Shown: positions 18,866 through 52,364 of the stretch, piece by piece | Position numbering within the stretch: position 1 is the first letter of the stretch | Layout of the letters: every line of letters begins with the position of its first letter | Origin: a virus | Taxonomy: Duplodnaviria > Caudoviricetes | IMG/VR virus record: IMGVR_UViG_3300010882_000012 | Direction: 5' to 3' (one strand) | Length of the DNA: 64,000 bases | Notes under the pieces: model-generated | What the model saw: the letters and a program-made list of their open reading frames with translations, nothing else | What the model was told of the DNA's origin: nothing | The model's database searches: none | Program-made: the position numbers and the translations under genes

Positions 18866-18893
18866 TTTCTTCACTATCAAAATTCAAAATTCT

Positions 18894-20159
18894 CTAAAAT
18901 AATTTTTTCTGATCTTGTATTACAATATAACGATCTTCCATGCTGGATAATTTTGGTTTGGGAATCGGTACGATATACCGTGGATCTTTTTGTTGTTGAA
19001 AAAACAGACTACTTTTACTGTTAATAGGACCAATTGGCTGAAAATAATAACTGAAATCACTATTTTTATTACCATGTACTTTCTTTATAATCTGCATGAT
19101 TTCATCTTTTGATAAAGAATGATTTTTTAATTGCATCGTAGATAAAATCATACCACGTGCTGACATATCATGTGGACAACGACCTAATCCTTTACCACGT
19201 TGATATGGTTTTCTTTCTTTTGTTTCTACTACCGGAATTACTTTTTTGCAAGATTGTCTAACTTTTCCTTTTACAACAGGTTTTTCTACCGGAGCTTCTG
19301 TTACAAGTCTGAAAGTGGATTCCATTTTTGTAGCACCAGATTCTACTAATAGAAGAAAACGTTTATCAGTTTTATTCTGCTTCAAAAGAGAAGAAAATGA
19401 ACCTACACCATTTGTACTCGGTTTTTGAAAATAATGGATAAAGCAATTGCAATTATCGACAGTTTTTTCTAAAGTAGGATAAGAGGTACCAAGAAGAAAT
19501 TCAAGTACTTCTCTCATAGTAACATCTTTTCCTTGTGCTTGAATCCAATCTAAACCCAGAGTACGGAGAGATTTCTTTACAGGTTCTACTTTCTTAGATG
19601 TGGTTGCAACCTCATCTTCAATTGGTTGTGCTTGAACAGGCATCGGCGGAATATGACGACAAGCAAATCCATTTTTAAACATGAATTCTGCCAGTAAACC
19701 TTTTTGAACTAATTTAGAAAGCGATTCAGATAAAGCACCCAAGATAATGGATTCTTGCACATGTAACGGACAAGCTTTGTATGCATCTGCATTCACATAG
19801 TTATTGTAAAGATCTCGCATTGCTAACGCATCATTGTGATCTTCATAGATAAGACCATCTGCCATAGTATTGTCCTTTTTACTAAGGATGATTGTTCCAG
19901 TTTTCATTTTGATATTGTTTAAAGTTAATTTTTGTTTTACCTCAGTTTTAAGTACTTGATTCCACCGTGCTGCTAGCATACTGTGACCGATGTGAAATCC
20001 GTTACAAATAGGGCATTGGTATGCATCAAATGGAGCTCCCATACTAAGTGTTACACCTTCTGCTGCTTTTTGTGCAATTTCCAACGTTTCATATGCTTTC
20101 TTTACTTTGTTTCCTTTAGTAAAATGAGCATTTTTCTTTTGTTTTAGTGTTAGTTCCAT
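18894..20159 (-). CDS. multidomain protein: Zn ribbon plus two repeated putative winged-helix-like domains
   Basis: AYQCPICNGFH; two YFQ...SSL...D.R[FY] repeats. Confidence 0.7.
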   Translation of the reverse strand: MELTLKQKKNAHFTKGNKVKKAYETLEIAQKAAEGVTLSMGAPFDAYQCPICNGFHIGHSMLAARWNQVLKTEVKQKLTLNNIKMKTGTIILSKKDNTMADGLIYEDHNDALAMRDLYNNYVNADAYKACPLHVQESIILGALSESLSKLVQKGLLAEFMFKNGFACRHIPPMPVQAQPIEDEVATTSKKVEPVKKSLRTLGLDWIQAQGKDVTMREVLEFLLGTSYPTLEKTVDNCNCFIHYFQKPSTNGVGSFSSLLKQNKTDKRFLLLVESGATKMESTFRLVTEAPVEKPVVKGKVRQSCKKVIPVVETKERKPYQRGKGLGRCPHDMSARGMILSTMQLKNHSLSKDEIMQIIKKVHGNKNSDFSYYFQPIGPINSKSSLFFQQQKDPRYIVPIPKPKLSSMEDRYIVIQDQKKLF

Positions 20160-20160
20160 A

Positions 20161-21432
20161 TTAACGCTCTATAATTTCAACGATATAACGAATTGTTGAC
20201 TGTTCTGTAGAATAAACCATAAACTCATTATTACGAATTGAAGTGCCGGCATGAGCATAAACACTATCAAAACCTTCACGATCAAGTTGTTTTTTATTTA
20301 AATCATAACAAGCCGATGTATGATTATAGATATGTTTTTGATTGCCCACATGAACATCATAGATTGCTAAGAAAGCTTTTTTGCTACAACCCTTTGCCCA
20401 ATAAGAACCAGAAAGAGAAGTATATCCAATAGATTTTTGTGCTTTATCTGCAAAATAAACAGAATTTCCATACATTGCACCTGTAATTATTACACCCGCC
20501 GGACGTATTAAAAGTCCGGTTTGCAAGATGTTCATCCAATTTTCATTTCTGCTACCATGCCAAAACAGTTCGCATTTTTGGTTTTTGGCTTTTGCAACAT
20601 AGCTCTTAAAGTTTCCTTCTGTTTTTTTGTTTACCACAGAAAAAGCTCTTTTGTACTGACCGGAATTGTTTCCCATCATTTTCTTAATGAGTTCTGCTTC
20701 TTTAGAAGACACTTCTTTAACTTCTAGTCCAAGTACCTCAAGCATGTCCATAGTGCTCTTAGAATTGCCCGTTTGCGTCCTGGTGGCTTCTTTTTGTTTC
20801 TTTATTGCTTCAACCTGACCCGCCATAACGTCCAAAAGTTTTTGTTCATCATCTAGCATTCGTTGTAATGATGAGGTAGAGTATCCGCTTTCTACAAGAT
20901 GGTTTTTTACGTGAGCCATTTTTCTCGGTACTGTTCGATACAATTTCAACAAACAATCATTAATAGTTGTTGAAGTACTTTGATTTCTTAAATGACCAAC
21001 CAAGTTGTCAAGGATTTTTTGAGCCTCATCAACTTGTGCTTGTGTAACATCTTCTTGAGTTACAGAATAGTTTTCTTTAATGGTTTTGTTTGCATATGCT
21101 TGGAGTTCGTCAATGAGTTGACGCACCATAGCATTCTGGATGGCGGTTACTTGTGCTCCGGTTGTAGCATCTTTGATATCGGCCTCAATCTTTTCAGTAT
21201 AGAGGTGTGTGATATCATTGTAACCTTTTTTGGTTTTTTCACGATACTTTTTATCCCAATCCGACATAGGATAAGAGTGCTCTATGGAGGTAGATTCTAT
21301 CCTGCCATAAACCACTTTAAAATTTCCATCGTTCTGCTCGAACATATGGTAAAACTTGTTGTTATTGTCCCCTGTAACACAAACCAGTTTTTTAACTTGT
21401 TTGCCTGGTACCGAGTAATCTGATATTTTCAT
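20161..21432 (-). CDS. poly(ADP-ribose) polymerase (WGR + regulatory + catalytic domains)
   Basis: NNNKFY..YGR; LYRTVP; WHGS, MYGNSVYFAD..KSIGY, NEFMVY (H-Y-E triad). Confidence 0.9.
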   Translation of the reverse strand: MKISDYSVPGKQVKKLVCVTGDNNNKFYHMFEQNDGNFKVVYGRIESTSIEHSYPMSDWDKKYREKTKKGYNDITHLYTEKIEADIKDATTGAQVTAIQNAMVRQLIDELQAYANKTIKENYSVTQEDVTQAQVDEAQKILDNLVGHLRNQSTSTTINDCLLKLYRTVPRKMAHVKNHLVESGYSTSSLQRMLDDEQKLLDVMAGQVEAIKKQKEATRTQTGNSKSTMDMLEVLGLEVKEVSSKEAELIKKMMGNNSGQYKRAFSVVNKKTEGNFKSYVAKAKNQKCELFWHGSRNENWMNILQTGLLIRPAGVIITGAMYGNSVYFADKAQKSIGYTSLSGSYWAKGCSKKAFLAIYDVHVGNQKHIYNHTSACYDLNKKQLDREGFDSVYAHAGTSIRNNEFMVYSTEQSTIRYIVEIIER

Positions 21433-21455
21433 ATGATATTGAATTTTGATAGTAC

Positions 21456-21512
21456 AAAAATACCGCTTTTTTCTTTACGATGAGAACCTAGATGGAAAAA
21501 GATACTAACAAT
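21456..21512 (-). promoter_or_regulatory. Class-1 promoter (one mismatch) for PARP unit
   Basis: ATTGTTAGTATCTTTTT plus TATTTTTG box. Confidence 0.75.
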
Positions 21513-21532
21513 TTCATGATAAGGTTTAAACT

Positions 21533-21560
21533 AAAAAAGTCCTTGATTACTCAAAGACTC
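21533..21560 (-). terminator. intrinsic terminator
   Basis: AGTCTTTGA-GTAA-TCAAGGACT-TTTTT. Confidence 0.8.
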
Positions 21561-21621
21561 TTTTAGACGTTCAAAAATCATTATTCACAAAATCTTGATA
21601 AATGAAAAAATCAAAAATTGT
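21533..21621 (-). ncRNA. candidate ~85-nt U-rich sRNA
   Basis: Own class-1 promoter and terminator; at most a 16-codon ORF. Confidence 0.6.
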
Positions 21622-21626
21622 ACTAC

Positions 21627-21683
21627 AAAAATATTGTAATTCTAGATATGAAAGTTTAGTTACATGAAAAAGTTACTAACAAT
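21627..21683 (-). promoter_or_regulatory. Class-1 promoter
   Basis: Motif plus box at fixed spacing. Confidence 0.8.
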
Positions 21684-21690
21684 CTGTTTA

Positions 21691-21723
21691 AAAAGAAAAA
21701 CGCCCATAGATTCTTTCTGGGCG
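21691..21723 (-). terminator. intrinsic terminator
   Basis: CGCCCAGA...TCTATGGGCG-TTTTTCTTTT. Confidence 0.75.
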
Positions 21724-22068
21724 CTTCTCGTCAGATTTTTGGGCGAAGGTTCTGTAACACCTTTTCTGGCAGCCTAATGGACCTAGTTGAAATCAATTGT
21801 TTTCTGTCCCGGCAGCATGCCCCATAAACCAAGATTCATTTCATGTTCAGGTTCTTGGTCGACCTGATTGCCGGCAAGGTGTTTTCGCTTTCGCTACGGA
21901 TTACCTTCGGTGCCGGCAGGCATTCTAAAGACCTGACTCGCGATTCCCGAACGGTTCGCATTATAGCGGCGGGCTCGAGGAGGTCTGGTTTTTCCGAGTT
22001 GACGTTAGGATTCCGCGCGGAGATTCCTGGTTTCTGATCAGCCTACCAGGTAGTGTCAATCGGATGAG
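21691..22068 (-). ncRNA. candidate ~375-nt GC-rich structured ncRNA (RNA1)
   Basis: Own promoter and terminator, no minus-strand ORF in track, many nested stems, pseudoknot. Confidence 0.75.
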
Positions 22069-22073
22069 ATTGT

Positions 22074-22129
22074 AAAAATACTAAAAATATCAATGCGAAA
22101 ATTTAAAAAGAGAAAAAGTTACTAACAAT
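22074..22129 (-). promoter_or_regulatory. Class-1 promoter (spacing 1 nt shorter)
   Basis: Motif 22113-22129. Confidence 0.75.
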
Positions 22130-22152
22130 TTAAACAATTTTTGATGAGGTTT

Positions 22153-22190
22153 AAAAAAGAAAAGAGTCCTTAGATTACTCTAGGACTCTC
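22153..22190 (-). terminator. intrinsic terminator
   Basis: GAGTCCTAGA-GTAA-TCTAAGGACTC-TTTTCTTTTTT. Confidence 0.85.
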
Positions 22191-22415: not shown

Positions 22416-22417
22416 TA

Positions 22418-25999: not shown

Positions 26000-26032
26000 A
26001 TCTGATAAATTTGAATTTTGATTTGATAGTGT

Positions 26033-27232: not shown

Positions 27233-27736
27233 TTAACATTGATTTAAAATTTCTTCTTTTACTTGTTCAAATCTCTCCCATATTCTCTCCGCGTACCAAG
27301 TATGCTTATTGTGCAATCGGATTGCCTTATTAAGGTCCTTTTCTGGATTTCTGTGGTTTTGTACTATATCAAACATTTCTCTTGATTTCGTGATATCAAA
27401 AGCATCTTCATGTTTGTACTTCTCTTTTCCTAAGATTCGATTCACTTCCTTAACATAGATAGGTGTGATTTGAATTATTCCCCAATCTTTGTCCTTTCCT
27501 TTTAGTTTAGGATCATTTGCATAGTCCTTTTCTTGTTCATTAACACCCAAAATGGTTTTAGTCTCTACCCAACAAATGGTCTCATAAAGTAGCTCCCATT
27601 CTTGTTCTTTTGTGAGTTCTTTTTGCATAACTATTACCTCCTCGACGACAGGCTCTTCTTGATGAGGTTCTTCTATAGAAGAAATCAGTAATCCGGTAAA
27701 AACTGCTATTATTACATGATTGATGATATTTTTCAT
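27233..27736 (-). CDS. lysozyme-like/lytic transglycosylase with N-terminal membrane anchor
   Basis: ICWVET (catalytic Glu), GIIQITPIYVKEVNRI, AIRLHN. Confidence 0.75.
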   Translation of the reverse strand: MKNIINHVIIAVFTGLLISSIEEPHQEEPVVEEVIVMQKELTKEQEWELLYETICWVETKTILGVNEQEKDYANDPKLKGKDKDWGIIQITPIYVKEVNRILGKEKYKHEDAFDITKSREMFDIVQNHRNPEKDLNKAIRLHNKHTWYAERIWERFEQVKEEILNQC

Positions 27737-27757
27737 TACTTGAATTTTTGATACTGT

Positions 27758-27821: not shown

Positions 27822-28478
27822 TTAAGCTTTTCTATCTTCGGAGATTCTGTTGAGATAAAAGCTAATCATTTCATAGACAGGTTGAAGTTCTTTCGGAATA
27901 TCACCCTTTGTATGCTCTCTATCTACTAAGAGACGTAAAGCCTCTAAATGATAATTGATGAGGTTGAGACAATCATAGGATTGTTGCCCACGCGTAAACA
28001 TGCTGGTAAGATGTGCCATTTCTTGATATTGACCAAGTTCATCTATGATTTCAGCATAACGTGCATCTCCGGTTTTGTTTGAAAACGGATTTTCATGTCT
28101 CCACTCATCAAGCTTCTTTTTAGCTTTTTCGATTTCAGGCGTAACATCAGAACCGGGTGAACCTGATTTATCAGTAACTAAGATAATCTCCGGTTGTTTA
28201 GGATCCGGTTTAATTAAACGGCATTCGTAATAATGATTTGCACACAAATTCCAATGGATAAGTCCATCTTCTGTTTGCCAACATCCACCCGATTGATAGC
28301 GAAATGATTGATCGTTAAAGTGTGATAAATCAGCTTTGTGCCAATCTGATCTTTGGTAATCTACACTTGCATCAAAAGCATAATCATCGGTGTAGATTCC
28401 ATTGCATCTGATTTCAATATTACCGACATGGATTTGCTTTTTCAGCCAATCTCTTCTAATTGTTTTGATTTTTGTCAT
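27822..28478 (-). CDS. hypothetical protein
   Basis: YTDDYAFDA motif. Confidence 0.8.
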   Translation of the reverse strand: MTKIKTIRRDWLKKQIHVGNIEIRCNGIYTDDYAFDASVDYQRSDWHKADLSHFNDQSFRYQSGGCWQTEDGLIHWNLCANHYYECRLIKPDPKQPEIILVTDKSGSPGSDVTPEIEKAKKKLDEWRHENPFSNKTGDARYAEIIDELGQYQEMAHLTSMFTRGQQSYDCLNLINYHLEALRLLVDREHTKGDIPKELQPVYEMISFYLNRISEDRKA

Positions 28479-28496
28479 GATATTTTGAATTTTTGA

Positions 28497-28847
28497 TTAG
28501 TCTTCTACGATTTGAAAATTTTCATCTTCTAAAATTCCAAGGTTAATAGCCTCAGCTTTTGAAAGTAAGGTGCATATCATAATACCTTTAGACCATTCTG
28601 TAGTACCATAAAATTTGCAACCTTTACAACCGCCTTCACCACAATCTTCCGGACAATCGGTATGTTCTGAAGAGTAAAAGTCTTCAAACGCTAATAGCCT
28701 ATGATTTCCATCCGGCTCATTTAAAATTAAGTAATCTTCTTGTACTTCGAGTACAATACCCTCATAGACCTTACCATTAGGAAGATTGTTTGATCCTCTC
28801 ATGATGATTTTGATCCGGTCCTTAGGTTCAATTGGTACATTTTGCAT
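28497..28847 (-). CDS. hypothetical protein
   Basis: Start corrected to MQNVP. Confidence 0.75.
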   Translation of the reverse strand: MQNVPIEPKDRIKIIMRGSNNLPNGKVYEGIVLEVQEDYLILNEPDGNHRLLAFEDFYSSEHTDCPEDCGEGGCKGCKFYGTTEWSKGIMICTLLSKAEAINLGILEDENFQIVED

Positions 28848-28874: not shown

Positions 28875-28945
28875 AAAAATACAGCTTTTATCCTTACGAA
28901 AGTGCATGAATCGGAAAAAGTTACTAACAATCATATGCTAGTAAC
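28875..28945 (-). promoter_or_regulatory. Class-1 promoter with hairpin extension (terminator)
   Basis: Motif 28915-28931. Confidence 0.8.
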
Positions 28946-28970
28946 CTTTTCACTATCAAATCAAAATTCT

Positions 28971-29279
28971 TTAATCGTAAATTTCTTGGCACATGGATTT
29001 CCATGTTTCTTCTTCTATTTCAGTAGAGTTGTTAAAATTAAGGTATGCAAAATTTCCATTTCTGGTATAGAACTTGCAACCAAACTTTTCAAATTCTCTT
29101 TCTATTAAACAGTCTCTATCTGAAAGTGATAAATTCGGCGATTGTTTAGAGATGAGATTATGCGCTAATCTAAGTGCTGCTGCATCCGTTTCTATTTCTG
29201 GTGTAGTCTCATCAAATCCTACTCTATGATAAAGTTTGAAAAAGACGGCTTCTGCTATTTGTTGATTTGAAACTTTCAT
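28971..29279 (-). CDS. hypothetical protein
   Basis: Tiled ORF. Confidence 0.7.
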   Translation of the reverse strand: MKVSNQQIAEAVFFKLYHRVGFDETTPEIETDAAALRLAHNLISKQSPNLSLSDRDCLIEREFEKFGCKFYTRNGNFAYLNFNNSTEIEEETWKSMCQEIYD

Positions 29280-30131: not shown

Positions 30132-30383
30132 TTACAGTAATTCTAAGAAATTAGCATTACCCCAACCGTCTGCTCTTCTAATCCAAGCATTGTGGCTGGT
30201 AAATTCTTGATCTCCCCAATAAATGGTCCGATCTAAGTTAACTTTAACATTAATAGTATGGATATCTTTGGTCACCTCTGCTATAGTACCTTCTTCCATT
30301 TGTCCGAAAGTCATAGTTTTGCATTTTCTACCGATGAGGTCATTACGGAGGATTCCATTAGGTGCTAATTCTTGTACTGTCAT
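30132..30383 (-). CDS. SH3-like hypothetical protein
   Basis: Start corrected to MTVQE. Confidence 0.7.
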   Translation of the reverse strand: MTVQELAPNGILRNDLIGRKCKTMTFGQMEEGTIAEVTKDIHTINVKVNLDRTIYWGDQEFTSHNAWIRRADGWGNANFLELL

Positions 30384-30410
30384 GATGTTTGAATTTTGAT
30401 TTGATATCGT

Positions 30411-30482
30411 AAAAATACAGCTTTTATCCTTACGATAAGATTTAAAAAGAAAAAAGTTACTAACAATTTGCATGCTAGTAAC
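30411..30482 (-). promoter_or_regulatory. Class-1 promoter with hairpin extension (terminates NAD operon)
   Basis: Motif 30451-30467. Confidence 0.8.
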
Positions 30483-30534
30483 CTTTTCCACAATCAAAAA
30501 TTCAAAAAAGTTCTCTATTCAAGAGAATTTATTA

Positions 30535-31368
30535 TTAGATCCATTCTATTACAGTCGGATCATAGTTTTTGTACATCGGAGTTTTGTAATCCTTTTCTGT
30601 TAATTTGTACCATTGAAAGTGTTTTGCAAGTTCGTTAAATTCTTTCACAACTTCTTTTTTAATTTTCTTGTTGTCAAAACGATAGTGTGAAAAAGTCATA
30701 CCACAATCTGAATCAGTGTAAGAATCACATGCCGATTTTGTAATTTTAATAGCTTTTTCTATTGCTTCTAAAACAGTCTCTCTTGTTACTAATGGTATTT
30801 CTTCAACTGGTTCCGGTTCATTAATAACATTGATGTGATTAAGTTTTAAAATTGCAATTGCTTGACGATGAGATTCATCTGTAACACAAGCACAACAACT
30901 TGCATCTACAGTAATTTTGGCTTTACGATAGATTGCTGATAAGATAATAGCATTTTGTAAAACACAAATTCCGGTACACAATCCAAAAAGTTCAATTTCA
31001 TCAATATCCTCTTCATAGATATTATAGGATTCAAAAAACTCTTGCCATTTTACAGTACCATGTGCAAACTTTGTAATAGCACTTGAATTTTGTTCTAAGA
31101 GTTCTTTCAGTTCCGGATGTAATTCAGCTCCAGGAGTATCATAAACACAATGACATACACGTAAGTCTCTACCTTCTAAAGTATGCTCATACTTGTATGG
31201 ATCCATTGGATGATTATGGTTGTCAAAAGAATGTGCAATAAAATCTCCATTCTCTATGGCTTTTTCAATTTTAGTTTTACAGTTTGCTATGATAGCATGT
31301 GCATGTGGAGAACCTAAAGTTCCTGTAATAAAATCATTTTCTAAGTCGATTGCTAAAGTAATTTTCAT
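30535..31368 (-). CDS. pncA: nicotinamidase (isochorismatase family) with C-terminal extension
   Basis: IDLENDF, DNH, HCV, K, GLCTGICV. Confidence 0.85.
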   Translation of the reverse strand: MKITLAIDLENDFITGTLGSPHAHAIIANCKTKIEKAIENGDFIAHSFDNHNHPMDPYKYEHTLEGRDLRVCHCVYDTPGAELHPELKELLEQNSSAITKFAHGTVKWQEFFESYNIYEEDIDEIELFGLCTGICVLQNAIILSAIYRKAKITVDASCCACVTDESHRQAIAILKLNHINVINEPEPVEEIPLVTRETVLEAIEKAIKITKSACDSYTDSDCGMTFSHYRFDNKKIKKEVVKEFNELAKHFQWYKLTEKDYKTPMYKNYDPTVIEWI

Positions 31369-31380
31369 ATGATTAAGTTT

Positions 31381-32247
31381 TTAAAGTTGAACATTTTTAA
31401 TTAATTTGAACATTGGTATGGCTTTAAGTTTATGCTGCGACATCAGATTTCTTCCCATTACTGTTTTCACTATACCGGGTCGGATATTTTCATTTGCAAT
31501 AAATTCCGGTGTCGCATAAAGTATGAAATCATCAAGTTGTTCATATGAAAATCCAAGTTCTTCTTCATCAGATTGACCTTCCCAAAGATCAGCACTTGGT
31601 TTTTCATTGATGATAGATTTCGGAACACCAAGATATTCAGCAAGAACATAAACCTCTCTTTTTGTGCACCAACCGAGAGGATTAAGGTCACATGCACCAT
31701 CGCCCCATTTTGTAAAATAGCCACAATAACGTTCTGAAAGATTGCCGGTACCTATTACAAAACGACTCATGAGTTGTGCCATTTGATAAAGGTGATTCAT
31801 TCGGATACGAGCACAAACATTAGCTTTTGCCAGATTTGCTGCTTCTGGTGTAAAAGATTTATCCCAAAAAAGACTATTTTCTGTAACAAGCATAGAATTG
31901 ACTGTTTTGGTAATATTAAAAGTTTGCCATTCAAAGTCAAACTTGTCAACTAATTTCACACAGCGCTGCATAGAAGAGTTGTTTCCTCTTGACATGGATT
32001 CTCCATAAGGCATGGATATGAGTTGCACCGGTACATTTGCAATTTGACAAAGTCTTGCAACAACAGAGCAATCTACACCGCCTGACATGCCAAGTACAAC
32101 ACCTTTGCGATTTGCTTTTGCTACAGCATTTGCAATCCAATCTGACATAAGATTAGCATAATGTGCAACATTTTTACTATCAATAATTTCTTGTTTTAGT
32201 TGAGCCGGCATGGGACAACTTTTGTTTAAATTTTCAGTATTTTCCAT
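31381..32247 (-). CDS. nadE: NH3-dependent NAD+ synthetase
   Basis: LGMSGGVDC, ARIRM, GTGNLSE, GYFTKWGDG, PSADLWEGQSDEEELG; start at MENTE. Confidence 0.93.
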   Translation of the reverse strand: MENTENLNKSCPMPAQLKQEIIDSKNVAHYANLMSDWIANAVAKANRKGVVLGMSGGVDCSVVARLCQIANVPVQLISMPYGESMSRGNNSSMQRCVKLVDKFDFEWQTFNITKTVNSMLVTENSLFWDKSFTPEAANLAKANVCARIRMNHLYQMAQLMSRFVIGTGNLSERYCGYFTKWGDGACDLNPLGWCTKREVYVLAEYLGVPKSIINEKPSADLWEGQSDEEELGFSYEQLDDFILYATPEFIANENIRPGIVKTVMGRNLMSQHKLKAIPMFKLIKNVQL

Positions 32248-32257
32248 TTTTGTAATT

Positions 32258-33955
32258 TTAGAGGTTGTAAACACGTTTCATTTCTTTATTATAGAGAACT
32301 TTAATTTCATCCCATGAATTTAAGTAATAAAATTCTCCATCTTTGTAGAATTCTTTGAGTAAGTTTTTGTCTCCATATGCATCTGCTTCTTCAGGAGTCA
32401 AGTTGTCAATCATAGCATAGTTGTTTTTAGATTCATCCCAAATAACAACCGGTATACCGGTAGGAGATTTTTTAAAACTGTTCTTTTCAGATTTTACGAG
32501 TTTTTGAATTTTTTTGAAAACACCTGACATGATTTCTGCAATTCCTTTTAATGCAAAACCAAACGTATCTCTCGTAACATACTGATAAGTGAATGAACCA
32601 ATTCCAAAGCTAACGTTAATACTTGCAAATCCTTTGTCTCTAAGACGTTTGCAAATTTTGAAACATCTCTCAATTGTAATAGCATCACCGTAAGTAATTC
32701 CAATATGAGAATCATGTTCCTTAAAACCGTTTGCGTTTACAGTGCCACCGAATTCATTCCAAAGTGCTTCACACAATCCCAAATCTTCTACAGTCGGTGT
32801 GTACTCTTCATAGATATCTTTCCATGGATGATAAGCCGAAATCGAATGATCATCTTCTCTTGTTACTTTCCACCAGCTTCCATCTTTTAATCTGAAAATA
32901 ACGCCTAATCTCATTTCAGCAAAACCATTATTATGATAGTATTTCTTTGCTTCTGCCATGGTTAAGAAAATTTTTGTTTCTCTTCCACAAACAACTTCAA
33001 CCGGATCACCACTGTCAGGGCGGATGAAAACTTTTCCAGGTCTTGATAAAATTTGAGGTTTTATCTCCGGCAATACAGTAGAGATAACATTCCAAAAATC
33101 GTAAGTATCTGAAACAATTGAGATGTTGCCGCTTGGATACTTCTTTGTAATAAGAGTAAGAAATCCACGAACCTCATCAATTCCCCAACTACACATTACA
33201 GAATGTTCGGTTGACGGATTACAAGAAATAGCTCCTTTTGGTTTTTGATAAAAAGCTTTAAGATAATTACGGACAGGAACAGTAGCTGAAACATTAAAAG
33301 CAAGTAGATGTCCAGGACCTGTGCGATATGCTGCTTCCGGTTGATTCATGCCTCTCATTGAAAAGTCGCCGGCTTGATTATCAACTCGGACTTCATCTAC
33401 ACCTGTTTCTCTTGCAAATTGGATGAGAATTTTTTTGTAAACGGATGAGATAGTCCCGGATGTCATTGGACTCCAGATGTAAGAAGAAAGTTGAGTTTCG
33501 ATATAGCCAGGAATCCAGAAAAATCTTGGATCTGTATTCTCAATAGTAAACATTGCAACGCCAATAGGTACAAAAGTACCTTCCGCAAGTGCTTTTACCT
33601 TAATAGGAAGATATCCTAAAGCATGTAAAGCCCTAACATGTTCAGAACCATGATTAGCCGCCCATTCTGGATTTGTCTTTTTAAAGATATCTGTAATGGT
33701 CTCTTCGTATTCTGCAACTACATCTTCAACAGGTCTAGAGAAAAAGTAATCTTGGAAATTTTGTGTGATTTCTGCTAAAGCTCCTTGTAAAGAGTAAAAG
33801 CATACATGGTTAATTCCTTCTGCTCGTGACATCCGTGGAATCCAAGTTTCTAAAATCCATTCAATACCATCAGGATATTGGGACATGTGACAAATTTTGT
33901 AGACATCTGTCATGTCCATTGGATTTTTGATCATTCTGTCGTTTAATTGAAACAT
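32258..33955 (-). CDS. NAMPT/NadV-family phosphoribosyltransferase (Namat-like; Asp219 position is Ala)
   Basis: TDVYK..H...YP, DFSMRG, STEHS, VSDTYD, IRPDSGDP, YGDAIT, TRDTFGFA. Confidence 0.92.
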   Translation of the reverse strand: MFQLNDRMIKNPMDMTDVYKICHMSQYPDGIEWILETWIPRMSRAEGINHVCFYSLQGALAEITQNFQDYFFSRPVEDVVAEYEETITDIFKKTNPEWAANHGSEHVRALHALGYLPIKVKALAEGTFVPIGVAMFTIENTDPRFFWIPGYIETQLSSYIWSPMTSGTISSVYKKILIQFARETGVDEVRVDNQAGDFSMRGMNQPEAAYRTGPGHLLAFNVSATVPVRNYLKAFYQKPKGAISCNPSTEHSVMCSWGIDEVRGFLTLITKKYPSGNISIVSDTYDFWNVISTVLPEIKPQILSRPGKVFIRPDSGDPVEVVCGRETKIFLTMAEAKKYYHNNGFAEMRLGVIFRLKDGSWWKVTREDDHSISAYHPWKDIYEEYTPTVEDLGLCEALWNEFGGTVNANGFKEHDSHIGITYGDAITIERCFKICKRLRDKGFASINVSFGIGSFTYQYVTRDTFGFALKGIAEIMSGVFKKIQKLVKSEKNSFKKSPTGIPVVIWDESKNNYAMIDNLTPEEADAYGDKNLLKEFYKDGEFYYLNSWDEIKVLYNKEMKRVYNL

Positions 33956-33969
33956 TTTAAAATTTTTGA

Positions 33970-34173
33970 TTATTGTTTTAATTTGTCATGTTTTGATAAA
34001 GTGTGCATTGCAAGAATCCTAAGAATCTTTTGATAGAAGAAAATTGCTATAGGGATTAAAACCAACCATATAGAAATTTCAATAATAGTTGCAAGTTTTA
34101 AGACAAGCAAAATTATTGAAACTAAAATTAGTCCCAATCCGGGTAATAAAAATTTTCTTGCTTTAGTTTTCAT
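33970..34173 (-). CDS. small membrane protein
   Basis: LKLA..I..S.WLVLIP. Confidence 0.7.
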   Translation of the reverse strand: MKTKARKFLLPGLGLILVSIILLVLKLATIIEISIWLVLIPIAIFFYQKILRILAMHTLSKHDKLKQ

Positions 34174-34357
34174 TGAGTGATTCTATCATGTCAATTGAAA
34201 CTACAAGAAGGTTGTTATAATCACCACTCATAGCTTCTTTTCTGTAGTTGTTAATTTCTTCATTAGTCTTTTTCTCTGCTTTCATACAAGAAGAGACATA
34301 GCCCATAACGGAATAGGCATTACCATCTATTCCTACTAAATCATAAGGTTTTTTCAT
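34163..34357 (-). CDS. conserved small phage protein
   Basis: LVGIDGNAYSVMG...AMSGDYNNLL. Confidence 0.8.
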   Translation of the reverse strand: MKKPYDLVGIDGNAYSVMGYVSSCMKAEKKTNEEINNYRKEAMSGDYNNLLVVSIDMIESLNEN

Positions 34358-34373
34358 GTTTTTGATATTTTGA

Positions 34374-34613
34374 TTAAATTTTGTAGTCGTTTGGAATATT
34401 GAGGATAATGTAAATACCTCTATTAACTTGTGAGATATGACCAGCTCTAATTAAAGCATTAAATTCTTTAATAGCGGCTTGTTTTCCTGTTTCACTATAA
34501 TTACTTGTTCTCCATTGATAATTGAAGATAAAATTATGGCGTGTCATTGTTGCACCTATCTCTTTAAAAGATTGTAATACTTGAGTTGTTGTTTGTGAAT
34601 ATAATTTTGCCAT
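34374..34613 (-). CDS. small winged-helix-like protein
   Basis: LIRAGHISQVNRGIY. Confidence 0.6.
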   Translation of the reverse strand: MAKLYSQTTTQVLQSFKEIGATMTRHNFIFNYQWRTSNYSETGKQAAIKEFNALIRAGHISQVNRGIYIILNIPNDYKI

Positions 34614-34813
34614 ATCTTTAAATTTTAATAAGTGTCCTTTTTTGTGAGTATCATTATTTTAAATTTCGTTTATTGTACTGTTCTTGATAATGAGCAATAT
34701 TTTCTTCCATCTCTTCAATAGTTATCAAGTTTAATGCTTGTAATTCTTTTTGTCTTTCGGTGAGAAACTTTAGTAAAGTCTCACTCATTACGATATTGGT
34801 CTTTTCTGCCATA

Positions 34814-35002
34814 TTAAATCCTTTCTTTCATTGGTTCAACAATAATTTGTTCGCTGCAATTTGGACAAAAGATGTAATTAACTTGTGGATTACCTTCTCC
34901 AGGATATGCATGGAGTTTGTAGTCTTGAGTCATGTAACCGATTCTTTTATTACAATACTTGCACTTTGTTTCAAAGTGATGATTTTCTATTACGTGTGCC
35001 AT
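34814..35002 (-). CDS. Zn-ribbon protein
   Basis: CKYC...CPNC. Confidence 0.7.
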   Translation of the reverse strand: MAHVIENHHFETKCKYCNKRIGYMTQDYKLHAYPGEGNPQVNYIFCPNCSEQIIVEPMKERI

Positions 35003-35253
35003 GTTTCTAAAGTTTTTCTAAAATTACTGTTACTATTGACATAATGGAAATTATAATCCAAAAGCCGGTTGTGAGAAATCCCATAAGAAGTTTTGCATTA
35101 TCCCAAGCCCAAGATTTTGGTGTCCAATTTTTGTTACCTTTGCGATATTCACTACGATTAACTTAATCTGCTATAATAGCAACTAAAATTGTAATAACAG
35201 TGAAAATTGATATGGAGACTATTCCCCAAAAAGTGATGTTTACCATAGTTTTA

Positions 35254-35451
35254 TTATTTAAATAATGATGTGATATAAGCTGTGAGAACAAACATGATTA
35301 TGATAAGAGCAACAGTACATGCAAATTTTCCCATTCTTACGTAAAAAGATTCTAATCCATCAGGATTTACTGCTTCCCATCTTTGTTCTATGATTGTTGA
35401 AATTGTTGCTATAACAATTACTACAATTATTAAGGTAATCCAAAAAATCAT
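35254..35451 (-). CDS. small membrane protein
   Basis: Two TM helices. Confidence 0.65.
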   Translation of the reverse strand: MIFWITLIIVVIVIATISTIIEQRWEAVNPDGLESFYVRMGKFACTVALIIIMFVLTAYITSLFK

Positions 35452-35460
35452 ACTAACCTC

Positions 35461-35919
35461 CTATCTTTGAAAATAAACAACTACAGTAGGTATAGATTCT
35501 CCGAGTACATTAACATCACTTGCAAAAGTAACAAAAGTGACCGGATAAAACTCTTCGCCATCTTGAATTAAAACTGGATAATTTTCAGTTTTTTCTTCTT
35601 CTGAAAACCAACGATTGATAGAACGTGTAATTTCATTAGAAACAATAGGTTCTAAATTAGGTTCAGCAATAGCACCATGTTCTGGAATACAATAATTGTT
35701 TTCCATATCTACAGTGTTTAAAGTTTTTAAAACTAAAACGGTTTCATTGATTTGATTTCCTTCTGCGTCTTGTTTTGTGTGAAGATCGAAGATATCATAA
35801 TCAACAATCCATTCAGAAACTGCATCTTGTTCATCTGCATCAGCAAGTACTGCTTCTACTGGAGTTAATTTAGGTGCTTGTAAAGCTTCTAAATCTGATA
35901 AAAATTGTTTAGTATTCAT
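35461..35919 (-). CDS. acidic hypothetical protein
   Basis: Start corrected to MNTKQ. Confidence 0.75.
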   Translation of the reverse strand: MNTKQFLSDLEALQAPKLTPVEAVLADADEQDAVSEWIVDYDIFDLHTKQDAEGNQINETVLVLKTLNTVDMENNYCIPEHGAIAEPNLEPIVSNEITRSINRWFSEEEKTENYPVLIQDGEEFYPVTFVTFASDVNVLGESIPTVVVYFQR

Positions 35920-35940
35920 TTTGATTAATTTTGATACCAC

Positions 35941-36013
35941 AAAAATAGCATAATTTTCTTTACCATGTTGTTTAAAAAGAGAAAAGTTACTAACAATTTG
36001 TGATGCCAGTAAC
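35941..36013 (-). promoter_or_regulatory. Class-1 promoter with hairpin extension; drives unit containing NAD genes
   Basis: Motif 35982-35997. Confidence 0.78.
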
Positions 36014-36259
36014 TTTTACTCTATTTCCCATTCTCTTTCTTCTGTGGTTGCTTCCGACTGAACTACAAACTCTGGGAGAAGTTTGTTTCTCGTTTCACAA
36101 ATTCAAGATACGTCTCACCACCAGATATTACCTGAATCTCCACGAGCTTAAATTCGATATGTTCTATACCTACTCGTTCTCTTAGTACTAATTAGATTAA
36201 TTAAAGTTAGCGTTCTCATCAATTTCTCTGCTTAGTTATCATCAATCAAAATTCTATTT

Positions 36260-36285
36260 TATTATGCGCAAGTTTTAAAAAGTTT
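36260..36285 (-). promoter_or_regulatory. Class-2 motif
   Basis: AAACTTTTT-N11-ATAATA. Confidence 0.5.
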
Positions 36286-36479
36286 TAGAATTGTTGGAAA
36301 AAAATTGAAATTTTATCCGGTCTTTCATGTGCTTTACAAACTAAAGATTGACAACCGATTTCTTTTAGTGCACATTGTTGACAATCATTTAGTTGATATG
36401 ATTTTACTACTTTGTATCGATTTCCTTTAAATCGGCATGTAGTTCCTAACTCTATGAAAAACTTTTTCTTCTTTTTCAT
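36285..36479 (-). CDS. Cys-rich RxDxxxVxF family paralog
   Basis: CQQC...C....C....RPDKISIFF. Confidence 0.7.
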   Translation of the reverse strand: MKKKKKFFIELGTTCRFKGNRYKVVKSYQLNDCQQCALKEIGCQSLVCKAHERPDKISIFFQQF

Positions 36480-37014: not shown

Positions 37015-37085
37015 AAAAATACAGCTTTTATCTTTACGATAAGATTTAAAAAGAAAAAAGTTACTAACAATTTTCATGTAGTAAC
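37015..37085 (-). promoter_or_regulatory. Class-1 promoter with hairpin extension
   Basis: Motif 37055-37071. Confidence 0.8.
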
Positions 37086-37117
37086 TTTTCTCCACTCATT
37101 AAAACAACTTACTGCCA

Positions 37118-48265: not shown

Positions 48266-48266
48266 C

Positions 48267-48599: not shown

Positions 48600-48604
48600 T
48601 CTGC

Positions 48605-48826: not shown

Positions 48827-48963
48827 TGAGTATTATTTTAATTTTATTAAGATCGTTTAAAATTTCTTCAGATAATTCTTGAATTCTTTGAACTGCTTTT
48901 TTAGAATAATTAGGACAAACCATTCTTTTAACTCTGCCATCAGATACATCGACCCATTGTCCT

Positions 48964-49617: not shown

Positions 49618-49882
49618 CTTCTGTTTCTATTTTGTTAAACAATTGAAAATTACAAAAAGTACAAGCTAAAGTAAAAGCTATTGTACCTCCTAAAATTACC
49701 CATCCGATGTAAGTAAAGTAAGTTGGTAAAGCATTGATAAACCATTTCCATGCTATATCAAAACTACAATAATACCAATCTATTAAAAATCCTAATCCTC
49801 CTATTACAATTAGATTTACTAAGCAAATTAAAACAGTTACAATAAGACTCATTACAAAATTTTCTACTAAAATCTTTTTCAT
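49607..49882 (-). CDS. membrane protein
   Basis: Two TM helices. Confidence 0.7.
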   Translation of the reverse strand: MKKILVENFVMSLIVTVLICLVNLIVIGGLGFLIDWYYCSFDIAWKWFINALPTYFTYIGWVILGGTIAFTLACTFCNFQLFNKIETEDVL

Positions 49883-49896
49883 TTCAATCTCCTTTC

Positions 49897-50259
49897 TTAC
49901 TTTGCAAGTTCATACTTACCTTGACTATTCTTTACCAAAAATCTTGGTTCTTTTCTAGATGGTCCCATTAAAGTACCTGGTTTGTATTCTCTATTAAAGT
50001 ATGATTCTGATTTAGACCAATCGGGTTTATCAGAAAAATAACTAGAATAATAACCACGAGTTGCATACTTTTCAATTCCTTGATTGTATGAAACTCCATG
50101 TTTTACTGCCATCATAAACTCTTTGAGTTCAGTCCAGTTCATTGGTCTATTCATAGATTCACAAAAATCCATTACTACAGATTTTAAAGAAACTTTGTTT
50201 TCTCTCATGTAATTCCTGATATCACTCCAGGTATTGAGATAACTGTAATCTTTTTTCAT
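49897..50259 (-). CDS. putative winged-helix-like protein related to repeats in 18894..20159
   Basis: MNWTELKEFM...SYFS...KEPRFLV. Confidence 0.7.
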   Translation of the reverse strand: MKKDYSYLNTWSDIRNYMRENKVSLKSVVMDFCESMNRPMNWTELKEFMMAVKHGVSYNQGIEKYATRGYYSSYFSDKPDWSKSESYFNREYKPGTLMGPSRKEPRFLVKNSQGKYELAK

Positions 50260-50287
50260 ATCTTTTTTTAAATTTTGATTGATTTTT

Positions 50288-50698
50288 TTACTTGTTGTTA
50301 AATTTCATGTATGCCGCTAAAGCATCCGGAAAATTTGGTCCGCTATAGTGCATAATAGTTTCTTTTACATCATCTTCATTTTTTGCACAACGGTTAACAT
50401 AGAACCGATGATAAAATGGCGAAAAAAGTAATTCCACATATTGACCATATCCTGCCATTGAACAAACTTGCATTTTGTAGTTTTGGATATCTTCATTCAT
50501 TTGATCCACAACTTTTTGATAAGTTGTATCATCTTTCCACTGAGAACAAAAAGCCATTACAGCCCAAGCTGATTCCTTCGAAATTGAACCATCAAAATGA
50601 AGATGTTCCACTCGTGTTTCAGCAATTAAGTTATTAATTGATTTTTCACGATTTGCTTTAATTTTTTGACCGATAGTCATTGTTTCTTGATTTTCCAT
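50288..50698 (-). CDS. hypothetical protein
   Basis: First gene after promoter. Confidence 0.75.
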   Translation of the reverse strand: MENQETMTIGQKIKANREKSINNLIAETRVEHLHFDGSISKESAWAVMAFCSQWKDDTTYQKVVDQMNEDIQNYKMQVCSMAGYGQYVELLFSPFYHRFYVNRCAKNEDDVKETIMHYSGPNFPDALAAYMKFNNK

Positions 50699-50733
50699 TG
50701 ATTTGAATTTTGATTAATTAATTTTGATACTGT

Positions 50734-50790
50734 AAAAATACCGCTTTTTTCTTTACGATGTGTTCTTAAATGAAAAAAGTTACTAACAAT
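50734..50790 (-). promoter_or_regulatory. Class-1 promoter
   Basis: Motif plus box. Confidence 0.8.
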
Positions 50791-51009
50791 TTAACTATTG
50801 AATTTTCTTGCTAATTCTCTTTGTCTTTTTCTTCTTTGACTCTTCCATGCTAATTCAGCAATAACTGTTCCATAAAGTTCTTCTGCACAACTTTCAATCA
50901 TACTACGAGTTGAATTAAATTCTTGATATCCTCTTGAATCTTTTGCAATACACTCTTTTAGATTAAAGTTAAAAGCTCTTCGTAAATTTTTTAATAGTCT
51001 AATTTTCAT
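50791..51009 (-). CDS. small basic protein
   Basis: MKIRLLKNLRR. Confidence 0.65.
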   Translation of the reverse strand: MKIRLLKNLRRAFNFNLKECIAKDSRGYQEFNSTRSMIESCAEELYGTVIAELAWKSQRRKRQRELARKFNS

Positions 51010-51246
51010 CTTGTATTAATTTAATAATTTCATTAATTGAATTTTGTAAAGCTTCTACATGTTCTTTAGTAAAAATAATTTTTTTCTAAAGTCAATTTTG
51101 TGTGAACATCACTATTAATCATAATTCCTGATGTATTATCTGCAACAATCCATCTTTCTATCATTGTAACAGTATTTTGAACCGGACCAAGTTTGTTCCT
51201 AAGCATTGCTTCTAATGTCTCTTTTTCCATATCTAAAATTTTTTAT

Positions 51247-51317
51247 AAAAATACTGAATTTTCTGTTACTAAATTACAATAAAAAGAAAAAGTTACTAAC
51301 AATTTTCATGTAGTAAC
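51247..51317 (-). promoter_or_regulatory. Class-1 promoter with hairpin extension
   Basis: Motif 51287-51303. Confidence 0.78.
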
Positions 51318-51373
51318 TCTTCCCAATCAAAATTCAAAAAGCCGGAGTTATCAATTCCGGTTTGCGAGTAATC

Positions 51374-51577
51374 TTAGTATGCTTGGTATCCCAAACTTTT
51401 TAGTAATTCAACTTGACAATTTGCGGCAAAAATAGCAAAATGTTCAACTGTTTCTTTTGGTAAAAATTTTACCATTGCTTGCATTTTTGGATCTACTTTA
51501 TCTAAAGCAACTTCTGTAGCTTTTAGAATTTGTTCATGATACTTGATGTAAATTGGATCTTTGTAAAGCTCTTCCAT
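51374..51577 (-). CDS. hypothetical protein
   Basis: Tiled ORF. Confidence 0.7.
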   Translation of the reverse strand: MEELYKDPIYIKYHEQILKATEVALDKVDPKMQAMVKFLPKETVEHFAIFAANCQVELLKSLGYQAY

Positions 51578-51752
51578 AATTTTAAATTTTACCAGTAATC
51601 TTCACCAAAATAATCATCAATAATATCTTCAATATACCTTTCATCTTCTCCAAATTCGGCTGCAACTTCTTCAATTGCCATTTCTTTGTCATAACATTGA
51701 TTTTCCATCAAGTCTTCGAACATTTCAATAATTTCTTGATCCATATCTTAAT

Positions 51753-52010
51753 TTAATTAGTTAATCGTTGTAATACTAAAAATCCATTTTCTCCATAGTA
51801 TTCCTTTACAATATCTTCCATACTTTTGTTTTCTTCCTCATAATTACCATGTACTTGATGTAAATAGTCATCAAATTTGATAATATCAATTACAATTCTT
51901 TTAAAAGCTACAGTAAGTAATCCATCATAAAATGGTTGTATTGAACATTTAAAAGCATCTTCAAAATCTTTTCTTACTTTAGACCATTCTCCTATTTTGT
52001 AATAACTCAT
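51753..52010 (-). CDS. hypothetical phage protein
   Basis: IDIIKFDDYL...SMEDIV...YG. Confidence 0.7.
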   Translation of the reverse strand: MSYYKIGEWSKVRKDFEDAFKCSIQPFYDGLLTVAFKRIVIDIIKFDDYLHQVHGNYEEENKSMEDIVKEYYGENGFLVLQRLTN

Positions 52011-52207
52011 GATTTTTCAATTTTAACATTTTCTTCTAATTCTAAGATAAAAAGTAAAGCATTTTTCGCGCCTATCAATTGATAGTAAATCATATCTTCA
52101 GATTTAGAATACTCAATTCCTTTAAATAATTCTCTATTTTTCTCTATTGCTTCAAGATGATCTGTAATTTGTTTTAAGACATCTTCTGTTTTTGATTCTG
52201 TTCTCAT
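52007..52207 (-). CDS. hypothetical protein
   Basis: Tiled ORF. Confidence 0.65.
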   Translation of the reverse strand: MRTESKTEDVLKQITDHLEAIEKNRELFKGIEYSKSEDMIYYQLIGAKNALLFILELEENVKIEKS

Positions 52208-52364
52208 AATACTAAAAGTAAAATTGGTTAACTATTGTATCTGTATCAATTTTCGTAACATAAAGCACAAACTTCTGAATTTTTTCTATCTTTTCTGAAA
52301 TTTTGCAAACTATTAAAAAAGTTGCATAAAGTACTCTTGTCATTATTTTGAATTTTGATATTAC

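What the first reader, a model, noticed from the sequence alone, without database searches (positions are those of the whole stretch)
18873..52359. 3' tails are reverse complements of the 5' leader of the same transcription unit (mRNA panhandles)
Seen: PARP unit leader 21439-21453 vs tail 18873-18887, 15/15; leader 30391-30406 vs tail 28954-28969, 16/16; leader 52346-52359 vs tail 51326-51339, 14/14. Each tail (UUGAAUUUUGAU-type) sits just before the unit's terminator hairpin. The match is better to the unit's own leader than to the adjacent downstream leader (at 51.3 kb the adjacent leader lacks the motif), which argues against a local DNA inverted repeat. Weaker cases: 1177-1193 vs 1644-1659 (one bulge); 14911-14919 vs 16757-16765. 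Inference: end-to-end pairing that occludes the SD-less initiation region once the transcript is complete (a timer), protects ends, or makes an RNase III site. Caveats: AT-rich, leaders share a consensus, and not all units show it.
Basis: partly seen in the sequence, partly recalled or inferred. Interest (0 to 1): 0.78.

Follow-up and report, generated by a model that had tools for sequence, protein, structure and literature searches.

The report
Anti-leader tails before phage terminators
In the early region of an uncultured termite-gut phage, five 3' untranslated tails mirror the short leader that starts most early messages, so four messages could pair their two ends, but the match is generic rather than clearly unit-specific and no RNA data test it.

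Summary
The sequence facts hold. The three reported leader/tail pairs are exact (15/15, 16/16, 14/14), and each tail lies directly 5' of a terminator hairpin. The window carries 23 PeSL-like terminator-promoter-leader cassettes. The tail is a repeated 3'-end module whose core mirrors the shared leader core.

An unbiased scan finds five such anti-leaders: the three reported, one at 30488-30509, and an orphan at 36229-36254. Several decayed copies also exist.

Unit-specificity is only suggestive:
- The own leader ranks first or second of 23 in four of five cases and beats the adjacent leader in all four cassette tails with a strong own-leader match.
- In full-length leaders a foreign leader or start region always matches longer (19, 16, 15, 14 and 16 nt).
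- One tail has no own-leader match.
- Permutation p runs from 0.002 to 0.15 depending on the null.

Folding whole units predicts the 5'-3' helix (probability 0.95-0.99). However, two tails sit behind an extra terminator-like hairpin, and the only relative found keeps the cassette and leader but no intact tail. No RNA data exist.

Verdict: a real, non-random anti-leader element. An mRNA panhandle is plausible in four units but unproven. A new variant of known kinds (PeSL cassettes; icaR/hbs/hok end pairing).

The parts
18872..18892 (-). Anti-leader tail T1. It follows the stop codon of ORF 18894-20159, the second gene of the PARP unit.
   Evidence: It has 15 nt complementary to its own leader (21430-21453) and 16 nt to leader 52341-52359.
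18834..18872 (-). Terminator hairpin of cassette c18851, with an A-tract and U-tract extension. Its 3' arm is the conserved TTGTTAGTAAC box.
21430..21453 (-). Leader and start codon of the PARP unit (own leader of T1).
   Evidence: With the -7 box placed at -12..-5, only 12 of the 15 matched bases fall in the predicted RNA (PMC9723704).
28951..28969 (-). Anti-leader tail T2, directly after the stop codon of ORF 28971-29279.
   Evidence: It has 16 nt with its own leader 30381-30406 and 19 nt with leader 26013-26031.
28913..28951 (-). Terminator hairpin of cassette c28930.
30381..30406 (-). Leader of the unit that ends at T2. It is also the adjacent leader of T3.
30488..30509 (-). Its core carries one extra U.
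   Evidence: It has 8 nt with its own cassette leader 35917-35936, 13 nt with leader 27734-27752, 16 nt with the start region of the gene at 28478, and 11 nt with the NAMPT-like gene's start region at 33955.
30510..30527 (-). Small extra hairpin directly 5' of T3. The U-run of T3 could serve as its terminator tail.
30449..30489 (-). Terminator hairpin of cassette c30466 (17 pairs).
   Evidence: terminator scan.
51322..51340 (-). Anti-leader tail T4.
   Evidence: It has 14 nt with its own leader 52341-52359, 15 nt with leader 18769-18791, and 14 nt with three other leaders.
51342..51360 (-). Extra G+C-rich hairpin directly 5' of T4. T4 begins inside its U-run.
   Evidence: It was missed by the simple terminator scan because its loop is 9 nt.
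51286..51324 (-). Terminator hairpin of cassette c51302.
52341..52359 (-). Leader of the unit that ends at T4.
36229..36254 (-). Orphan anti-leader T5 with a decayed hairpin arm, 30 nt after the stop codon of ORF 36285-36479.
   Evidence: It has 13 nt plus a G-U pair with its own unit's leader (cassette 37070) and 14 nt with leader 18769-18791.
61135..61164 (-). Decayed copy of the tail plus 5'-arm module. It no longer complements any leader well (maximum 11 nt).
37076..37108 (-). Decayed copy of the tail module, 5' of the hairpin of cassette c37070.
18769..18791 (-). Adjacent downstream leader of T1. It is an example of the leader consensus that starts at the predicted +1.

Best explanation
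Shown. The window is the early region of a large phage of a Bacteroidota-type host. It carries 23 repeats of a composite cassette. Each cassette has an optional 3'-end module, a terminator hairpin whose 3' arm is the box TTGTTAGTAAC, a -33/-7 promoter, and a short A-rich leader without a Shine-Dalgarno sequence. The leader core is AUCAAAAUUC and begins at the predicted +1. The 'tails' are copies of one repeated 3'-end module: a U-rich anti-leader with core GAAUUUUGAU, a short spacer, an A-tract, and the 5' arm of the hairpin. Five copies are intact and at least three are decayed. Each intact copy can pair with many early leaders.

Inferred. In a transcript that starts at a consensus-type leader and ends at such a terminator, the first 12-15 nt pair with the anti-leader. 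The resulting helix stacks on the terminator hairpin. The closed message would cover positions from about -3 to -20 of the first cistron's start region. That would lower initiation once the transcript is complete, and it would shield the 5' end. This geometry exists for four units, among them the PARP-like unit. The element is best described as a generic anti-leader that travels with gene 3' ends in a PeSL-like shuffling system. It is not a unit-specific code.
For: - Cassette anatomy and 23 copies.
- Host type: a T9SS sorting domain in ORF 15015-16730. The promoter matches the Bacteroidota consensus, which lies at -12..-5 (PMC9723704, PMC7366714).
- Structure-sensitive initiation without a Shine-Dalgarno sequence in this phylum: PMC6847099.
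- Module homology upstream of the hairpin.
- Excess of the core motif.
- The five anti-leaders are the only long leader complements in 3' UTRs.
- Own-unit leader ranks first or second of 23 in four of five cases, p 0.002-0.04 against all leaders.
- Leader variants that differ by 4-5-nt insertions are mirrored in the tails of the same units (T2, T5).
- Own leader beats the adjacent leader in all four cassette tails with a strong own-leader match (T1, T2, T4; T5 not compared).
- Whole-unit folds give a 14-16-bp 5'-3' helix abutting the terminator, with pair probability 0.95-0.99. The helix is still preferred when the downstream leader is included.
- In the one tail-less control unit (18851 to 17847) with no anti-leader on its RNA, the leader stays unpaired. 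In unit 37070 the leader finds T5.
- Precedents for 5'-3' UTR pairing in bacteria: icaR (PMC3868564), hbs (PMC5737220), hok (PMC9841398).
Against: - Only four of about 21 coding units have the geometry.
- T3 has no own-leader match.
- Every tail has an equal or longer foreign partner.
- The slid control at offset +2 equals the own-unit score.
- With conservative nulls, p is 0.02-0.15.
- T3 and T4 lie behind an extra hairpin plus U-run, and T5 lies about 240 nt behind a strong terminator-like hairpin. The tail may therefore be absent from most transcripts.
- Decayed copies keep the hairpin but lose the anti-leader.
- The only relative found keeps the cassette and leader but has no tail with more than 10 nt of complement.
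- Equilibrium folding ignores ribosomes and kinetics.
- No transcript ends or RNA-RNA contacts are known.
Confidence: 0.4

Rival explanations
1. A DNA-level legacy with no RNA-pairing role. The tail is the left arm of an extended imperfect palindrome centred on the terminator hairpin. In this reading it is an inverted copy of the leader side that lost the promoter core. It spreads and decays with PeSL-like recombination, and the complement to leaders is a by-product.
For: - The tail lies at a fixed distance from the hairpin arm, with a shared spacer and A-tract.
- The mirror order runs arm, T/A-run, leader on both sides.
- Intact and decayed copies coexist.
- The match is to the consensus, so many leaders fit.
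- The feature is absent from the relative although the cassette is conserved.
- Left and right cassette halves have unrelated similarity patterns (Mantel r 0.007, p 0.49), as expected for recombination inside the conserved box.
- PeSL cassettes are known recombination substrates (PMC2839356, PMC4122927).
Against: - It does not explain why own-unit leaders outrank adjacent ones in four of five cases, or why leader insertions are mirrored in the same unit's tail.
- In the four cassette tails the anti-leader core is kept exact, or with one added base, while spacers and loops differ.
- The inverted-duplication origin is an inference.
Confidence: 0.3
2. A discriminator for read-through transcripts. 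In RNA that reads through the terminator, the tail pairs with the adjacent downstream leader. This encloses the terminator and promoter in a long-range stem that hides the next gene's start region or creates a double-strand nuclease site. Transcripts started at the cassette promoter lack the tail and are translated. This is the logic of T4 genes e, soc, 49 and I-TevI.
For: - Minimum-energy folds of the four cassette RNAs pair the tail with the adjacent leader in three of them (10-17 pairs).
- By geometry the promoter lies between the two arms.
- The T4 precedent is reviewed in PMC3014915.
Against: - The adjacent matches are shorter and bulged: 13, 12, 10 and 6 nt.
- Adjacent pairs score no better than random (p 0.35-0.9).
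- c51302 has no complement in the adjacent leader.
- When the own leader is on the same RNA, the fold prefers it.
- The arms are about 100 nt apart, unlike the compact T4 hairpins.
Confidence: 0.12
3. A trans-acting anti-leader. The tail plus terminator hairpin acts as, or is processed into, an sRNA-like 3'-UTR fragment. It pairs with the common leader of other early messages and helps shut early translation off. This would be a functional analogue of T4 RegB in a host without Shine-Dalgarno sequences.
For: - Each tail's longest partner is in another unit (19, 16, 16, 15 and 14 nt).
- Two tails match ten and nine leaders over 12 nt or more.
- A seed directly 5' of an intrinsic terminator is the usual sRNA layout (general knowledge; Bacteroides sRNAs in PMC7366714).
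- The role of RegB is described in PMC3014915.
Against: There is no evidence of processing or of a stable fragment. The own-unit enrichment is not expected under this model. The feature is not conserved in the relative. No RNA data exist.
Confidence: 0.1
4. Chance complementarity in A+T-rich DNA.
For: The DNA is 30% G+C. Matches of 9-11 nt are common. One 14-nt hit lies in a coding region.
Against: - The core occurs 13 times against 1.46 expected.
- Four of the five long hits lie at the same distance from the same hairpin arm, and the fifth lies beside a decayed copy of that arm.
Confidence: 0.03

Closest known systems
PeSL (promoter-early stem-loop) cassettes of T4-type phages (Arbiol et al. 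2010, PMC2839356; Comeau et al. 2014, PMC4122927)
   Same: Both are repeated composite terminator/promoter/start-region motifs between small early genes on one strand. The cassettes are far better conserved than the genes they flank: only 6 of 133 ORFs are shared with the relative. The halves recombine independently.
   Different: Here the promoter is of the Bacteroidota -33/-7 type and the leader lacks a Shine-Dalgarno sequence. The hairpin 3' arm is a fixed 11-nt box that is present even without a hairpin. Some copies carry an anti-leader 5' of the hairpin, which the passages I read in the PeSL papers do not mention. Gene gain or loss at the cassettes could not be shown, because no close relative was found.
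5'-3' UTR pairing in bacterial mRNAs: icaR of S. aureus (PMC3868564), hbs of B. subtilis (PMC5737220), tac/fbi of hok mRNA (PMC9841398)
   Same: A short 3'-UTR segment is complementary to the 5' UTR or start region of the same message. The length is similar (14 bp in hbs). The predicted effects are the same: a block of initiation, an RNase III substrate, or protection of the 5' end.
   Different: Those cases are single genes with experimental and, for hok, comparative support. Here the complement is to a leader shared by many units. It targets an A-rich start region without a Shine-Dalgarno sequence, it abuts the terminator hairpin, and it is untested.
Start-region sequestration in read-through transcripts of T4 genes e, soc, 49 and I-TevI (review PMC3014915)
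   Same: The upstream arm lies 5' of a promoter and the downstream arm lies at the start region. Only transcripts started at the internal promoter are free.
   Different: The arms are about 100 nt apart and enclose a terminator. The adjacent matches are imperfect and are absent in one of four cassettes.

Membership tests
PeSL-type regulatory cassettes | A repeated composite motif that joins a stem-loop terminator, an early promoter and the start region of the next gene | tested here: met
   There are 23 copies on the minus strand. Ten have the full hairpin.
PeSL-type regulatory cassettes | Resides in the variable small-gene regions of a T4-type phage | tested here: inconclusive
   The region holds many small minus-strand ORFs. 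A T4-type gp32 family match is present. No Gp23 or gp19 match was found, but the record is estimated at only 56% complete. Earlier notes of this scan call the phage T4-like.
PeSL-type regulatory cassettes | Recombination between cassettes causes gene gain, loss or replacement between close relatives | tested here: inconclusive
   Left and right halves have independent similarity patterns. No close relative was found. The one indel seen in other samples (33958-36286) does not end in cassette cores.
PeSL-type regulatory cassettes | Measured promoter and terminator activity | not testable with these tools
   No RNA run holds this phage.
5'-3' UTR-paired mRNA (icaR / hbs / hok type) | A 3'-UTR segment complementary to the 5' UTR or start region of the same transcription unit | tested here: met
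   Met in four of five anti-leaders, with 13-16 nt (12-15 nt within the predicted RNA).
5'-3' UTR-paired mRNA (icaR / hbs / hok type) | Both segments lie on one RNA molecule (mapped 5' and 3' ends) | not testable with these tools
   The start site is inferred from the position of the -7 box (PMC9723704). Extra hairpins precede T3, T4 and T5.
5'-3' UTR-paired mRNA (icaR / hbs / hok type) | The pairing is specific and maintained (covariation or conservation) | tested here: inconclusive
   Own-unit enrichment has p 0.002-0.15 depending on the null. Foreign partners are equal or better. The feature is absent in the distant relative. The DNA runs show no variants at the tails.
5'-3' UTR-paired mRNA (icaR / hbs / hok type) | Mutation and compensatory rescue change translation or stability | not testable with these tools
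   This needs an experiment.
T4 e / I-TevI-type read-through sequestration | A helix between a segment 5' of the promoter and the start region 3' of it | tested here: inconclusive
   Predicted in three of four cassettes, but bulged and no better than random pairs.

The most novel reading that the evidence does not exclude
The anti-leader tails and the leaders of the same units co-vary, including matched 4-5-nt insertions. Under this reading a subset of early phage messages in a host without Shine-Dalgarno sequences close into blunt 5'-3' panhandles stacked on their terminators. That would give a transcript-completion timer, or an end-protection device, for first cistrons such as the PARP-like enzyme. 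The device would be carried on modules that shuffle with PeSL-like cassettes.
Probability: 0.3. Interest if true: 0.7.

Novelty: new variant of a known kind. Interest (0 to 1): 0.45.

Why it matters
If the end pairing is real, it would be a modular form of 5'-3' mRNA closure. It would act on an A-rich start region that lacks a Shine-Dalgarno sequence, in phages of Bacteroidota, where structure is thought to be a main control of initiation. It would also show that PeSL-like shuffling units can carry post-transcriptional signals at both gene ends. If the pairing is not real, the finding still documents a compact, highly conserved terminator-promoter-leader cassette shared by two phages that share almost no early genes.

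Tried and rejected
- RNA evidence: no RNA holder was listed for this phage.
- Strain variation: DNA runs from termite-gut samples carry the same sequence, with no variant at any tail or leader. Their contigs simply break at the repeated cassettes.
- Relatives: scans of viral contigs with the box, the tail-plus-hairpin pattern and the promoter-leader pattern, and one metagenome scan, found only one related contig. It is G001 (217.7 kb), and the metagenome hit is apparently the same phage as a 219-kb contig.
- Orthologous 3' ends: protein-based searches with the last genes of two tail-bearing units found nothing. G001 shares 6 of 133 ORFs, so orthologous 3' ends do not exist there.
- Rfam: no family matched in the window.
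- The simple sigma-70 and terminator scans are of little use here, because the promoters are of another type and several loops exceed 8 nt.
- Integron attC-like recombination sites: by eye the hairpin arms do not fit the core-site consensus as I recall it. I did not pursue this.
- A looping operator pair was considered. The two motif copies are about 98-106 bp apart by my count from the coordinates. I left it untested because no candidate binding protein is known.

Full report
**Context**

The window is bases 82407-146406 of a 146-kb virus record with 30% G+C. All ORFs of note lie on the minus strand. ORF 15015-16730 carries a type-IX-secretion sorting domain. ORF 20161-21432 has a PARP catalytic domain. 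The block 30535-33955 encodes NAMPT-like, NAD synthase and isochorismatase-family proteins. The genome has a T4-type gp32 family match. I found no Gp23 or gp19 match, but the record is estimated at only 56% complete. DNA runs that hold the sequence are termite-gut metagenomes.

**The repeated cassette**

Aligning every copy of the box TTGTTAGTAAC shows 23 minus-strand cassettes in the genome, 21 of them in the window. Read 5' to 3' on the minus strand, each cassette has these parts:
- An optional inverted copy of the box, present in ten cassettes. Together with the box it forms a 10-17-bp hairpin that is flanked by an A-tract and a U-tract.
- The box itself.
- About 45 nt that hold a -33-like element and a -7 element. 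These fit the Bacteroidota consensus TAnnTTTG, which lies at -12..-5 (PMC9723704, PMC7366714).
- A short A-rich leader with core AUCAAAAUUC, which starts at the predicted +1.
- The start codon, 2-10 nt after the leader.

Two cassettes drive non-coding G+C-rich RNA instead of a gene. This layout is that of PeSL cassettes of T4-type phages (PMC2839356, PMC4122927), adapted to a host without Shine-Dalgarno sequences (PMC6847099).

**Checking the observation**

The three reported pairs are exact. The 10-mer core occurs 13 times against 1.46 expected. I then asked where the transcribed strand holds runs of 11 nt or more complementary to any leader. Runs of 13 nt or more against protein-coding leaders fall at five 3'-UTR places only, plus one hit in a coding region at 2282. 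By my own rough estimate, about one such stray hit is expected by chance.

The five places are:
- T1, 18872-18892
- T2, 28951-28969
- T3, 30488-30509
- T4, 51322-51340
- T5, 36229-36254, an orphan with a decayed hairpin arm

An alignment of the regions 5' of the ten hairpins shows that the tail, a short spacer, the A-tract and the 5' arm form one homologous module. It is intact in T1-T4 and recognisably decayed at 61135-61164, 37076-37108 and 1103-1116. So the tails are paralogous copies of a DNA module, and the hairpin is the centre of an extended imperfect palindrome.

**Is the match unit-specific?**

I scored every tail against every leader by longest complementary run and by duplex energy.

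| Tail | Own leader (nt) | Adjacent leader (nt) | Best foreign partner (nt) |
|---|---|---|---|
| T1 | 15 | 13 | 16 (leader 52341-52359) |
| T2 | 16 | 12 | 19 (leader 26013-26031) |
| T3 | 8 | 10 | 13 (leader 27734-27752); 16 (start region of the gene at 28478) |
| T4 | 14 | 6 | 15 (leader 18769-18791) |
| T5 | 13 + G-U | not scored | 14 (leader 18769-18791) |

The own leader ranks first or second of 23 in four of five cases. It is never the single best when full leaders are used. When leaders are trimmed to the predicted RNA, the own leader ties for best for T2 and T5, stays second for T4 and falls to about rank 6-9 for T1.

Permutation of unit labels gives these p values:

| Test | Run length | Energy |
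|---|---|---|
| Three reported tails, all leaders | 0.006 | 0.03 |
| Four cassette tails, all leaders | 0.01 | 0.064 |
| Five tails, all leaders | 0.002-0.004 | 0.02-0.04 |
| Five tails, motif-bearing leaders only | 0.017-0.027 | 0.09-0.15 |
| Five tails, 4-8 nearest leaders only | 0.015-0.06 | 0.04-0.15 |

The values for the three reported tails are post hoc. A slid control, the leader two units downstream, scores 52 against 53 for the own unit and has the better energy. Adjacent pairs are no better than random.

My reading is that there is a modest own-unit signal. It is helped by the fact that leader variants with 4-5-nt insertions are mirrored in the tails of the same units (T2, T5). It rests on five elements and does not survive all nulls at 0.05.

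**Folding**

The full predicted transcripts of the three reported units are 1.1, 1.5 and 2.6 kb long. All three fold with the first 14-16 nt paired to the tail, and the helix abuts the terminator hairpin. The mean pair probability is 0.95 and 0.99 for the two shorter units. The own leader is still chosen when the RNA is extended through the next leader.

In control units without a tail, the leader is unpaired in one and pairs only weakly in another. In unit 37070 the leader pairs with T5.

Cassette-only RNAs, which mimic read-through from far upstream, pair the tail with the adjacent leader in three of four cases.

These are equilibrium predictions without ribosomes or kinetics. They show feasibility only.

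**Points against a general panhandle rule**

- Only four of about 21 coding units qualify.
- T3 fails.
- T3 and T4 are preceded by a small hairpin whose U-run is the tail itself. T5 lies about 240 nt behind a strong terminator-like hairpin. Many transcripts may therefore end before the tail.
- Decayed copies keep the hairpin but lose the anti-leader.
- The one relative found is G001 (217.7 kb; loci L112-L119 cover positions 50001-210000). It has 20 cassettes with the same box, -7 element and leader core in the 160 kb examined. No tail there exceeds 10 nt of complement to any leader. G001 shares only 6 of 133 ORFs with the window, at about 42% median identity, so it is a distant relative.

**How the halves evolve**

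Pairwise similarity of the left halves (tail plus 5' arm) is unrelated to that of the right halves (promoter plus leader). The Mantel r is 0.007, with p 0.49. For example, c37070 and c30466 share 85% of the right half but 70% of the left half. This fits recombination inside the conserved box, as proposed for PeSLs. It means the tail belongs with the upstream gene's 3' end, not with the promoter next to it.

**Conclusion and weights**

The anti-leader is real, non-random and part of a shuffling cassette system. I weight the explanations as follows:
- 0.40: it acts by pairing with its own unit's 5' end.
- 0.30: it is a palindrome legacy without an RNA role.
- 0.12: it acts on the adjacent leader in read-through RNA, as in T4 e and I-TevI (PMC3014915).
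- 0.10: it acts in trans on other early leaders.
- 0.03: chance.

Known precedents for 5'-3' closure are icaR (PMC3868564), hbs (PMC5737220) and hok (PMC9841398). I did not check it.

Noticed in passing
window, 21 sites, e.g. 28920-28930, 52410-52420, 50779-50789; G001 loci L112-L119: The 11-nt box TTGTTAGTAAC sits about 60-70 nt upstream of the predicted start site even in cassettes that have no hairpin. It is identical in a phage that shares only 6 of 133 early ORFs. It may be a protein-binding or recombination site in its own right.
   Followed up: partly
window 33958-36286: In two other termite-gut samples (X4, X5), contigs join 36287 to 33957 with 32 other letters in between. A variant phage there appears to lack this 2.3-kb block, which includes cassette c35996, T5 and several small ORFs. 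The ends of the block do not lie in cassette cores.
   Followed up: no
window 21543-22128: Two full cassettes (boxes at 22118-22128 and 21672-21682) are followed by G+C-rich sequence without an ORF. These are probably non-coding RNAs. No Rfam family matches them.
   Followed up: no
window 28476-28503 and 33953-33980: Internal genes without a cassette promoter also carry leader-like start regions. The one at 28478 has a 16-nt perfect complement to T3. The NAMPT-like gene's start region has 11 nt complementary to T3 and, by eye, a G-U pair extending it, and it shares T3's extra base.
   Followed up: partly
window 36020-36284: This stretch of about 270 nt has no sizeable ORF. It lies between ORF 36285-36479 and the hairpin of c35996, and it holds the orphan tail T5 and a decayed hairpin arm. 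It could be a remnant of a lost cassette or a non-coding RNA.
   Followed up: no
window 17780-17861 (run X3): A contig in run X3 continues from the cassette box into sequence identical to the G001 cassette at position 198966. The distant relative therefore seems to co-occur in the same termite-gut sample.
   Followed up: no
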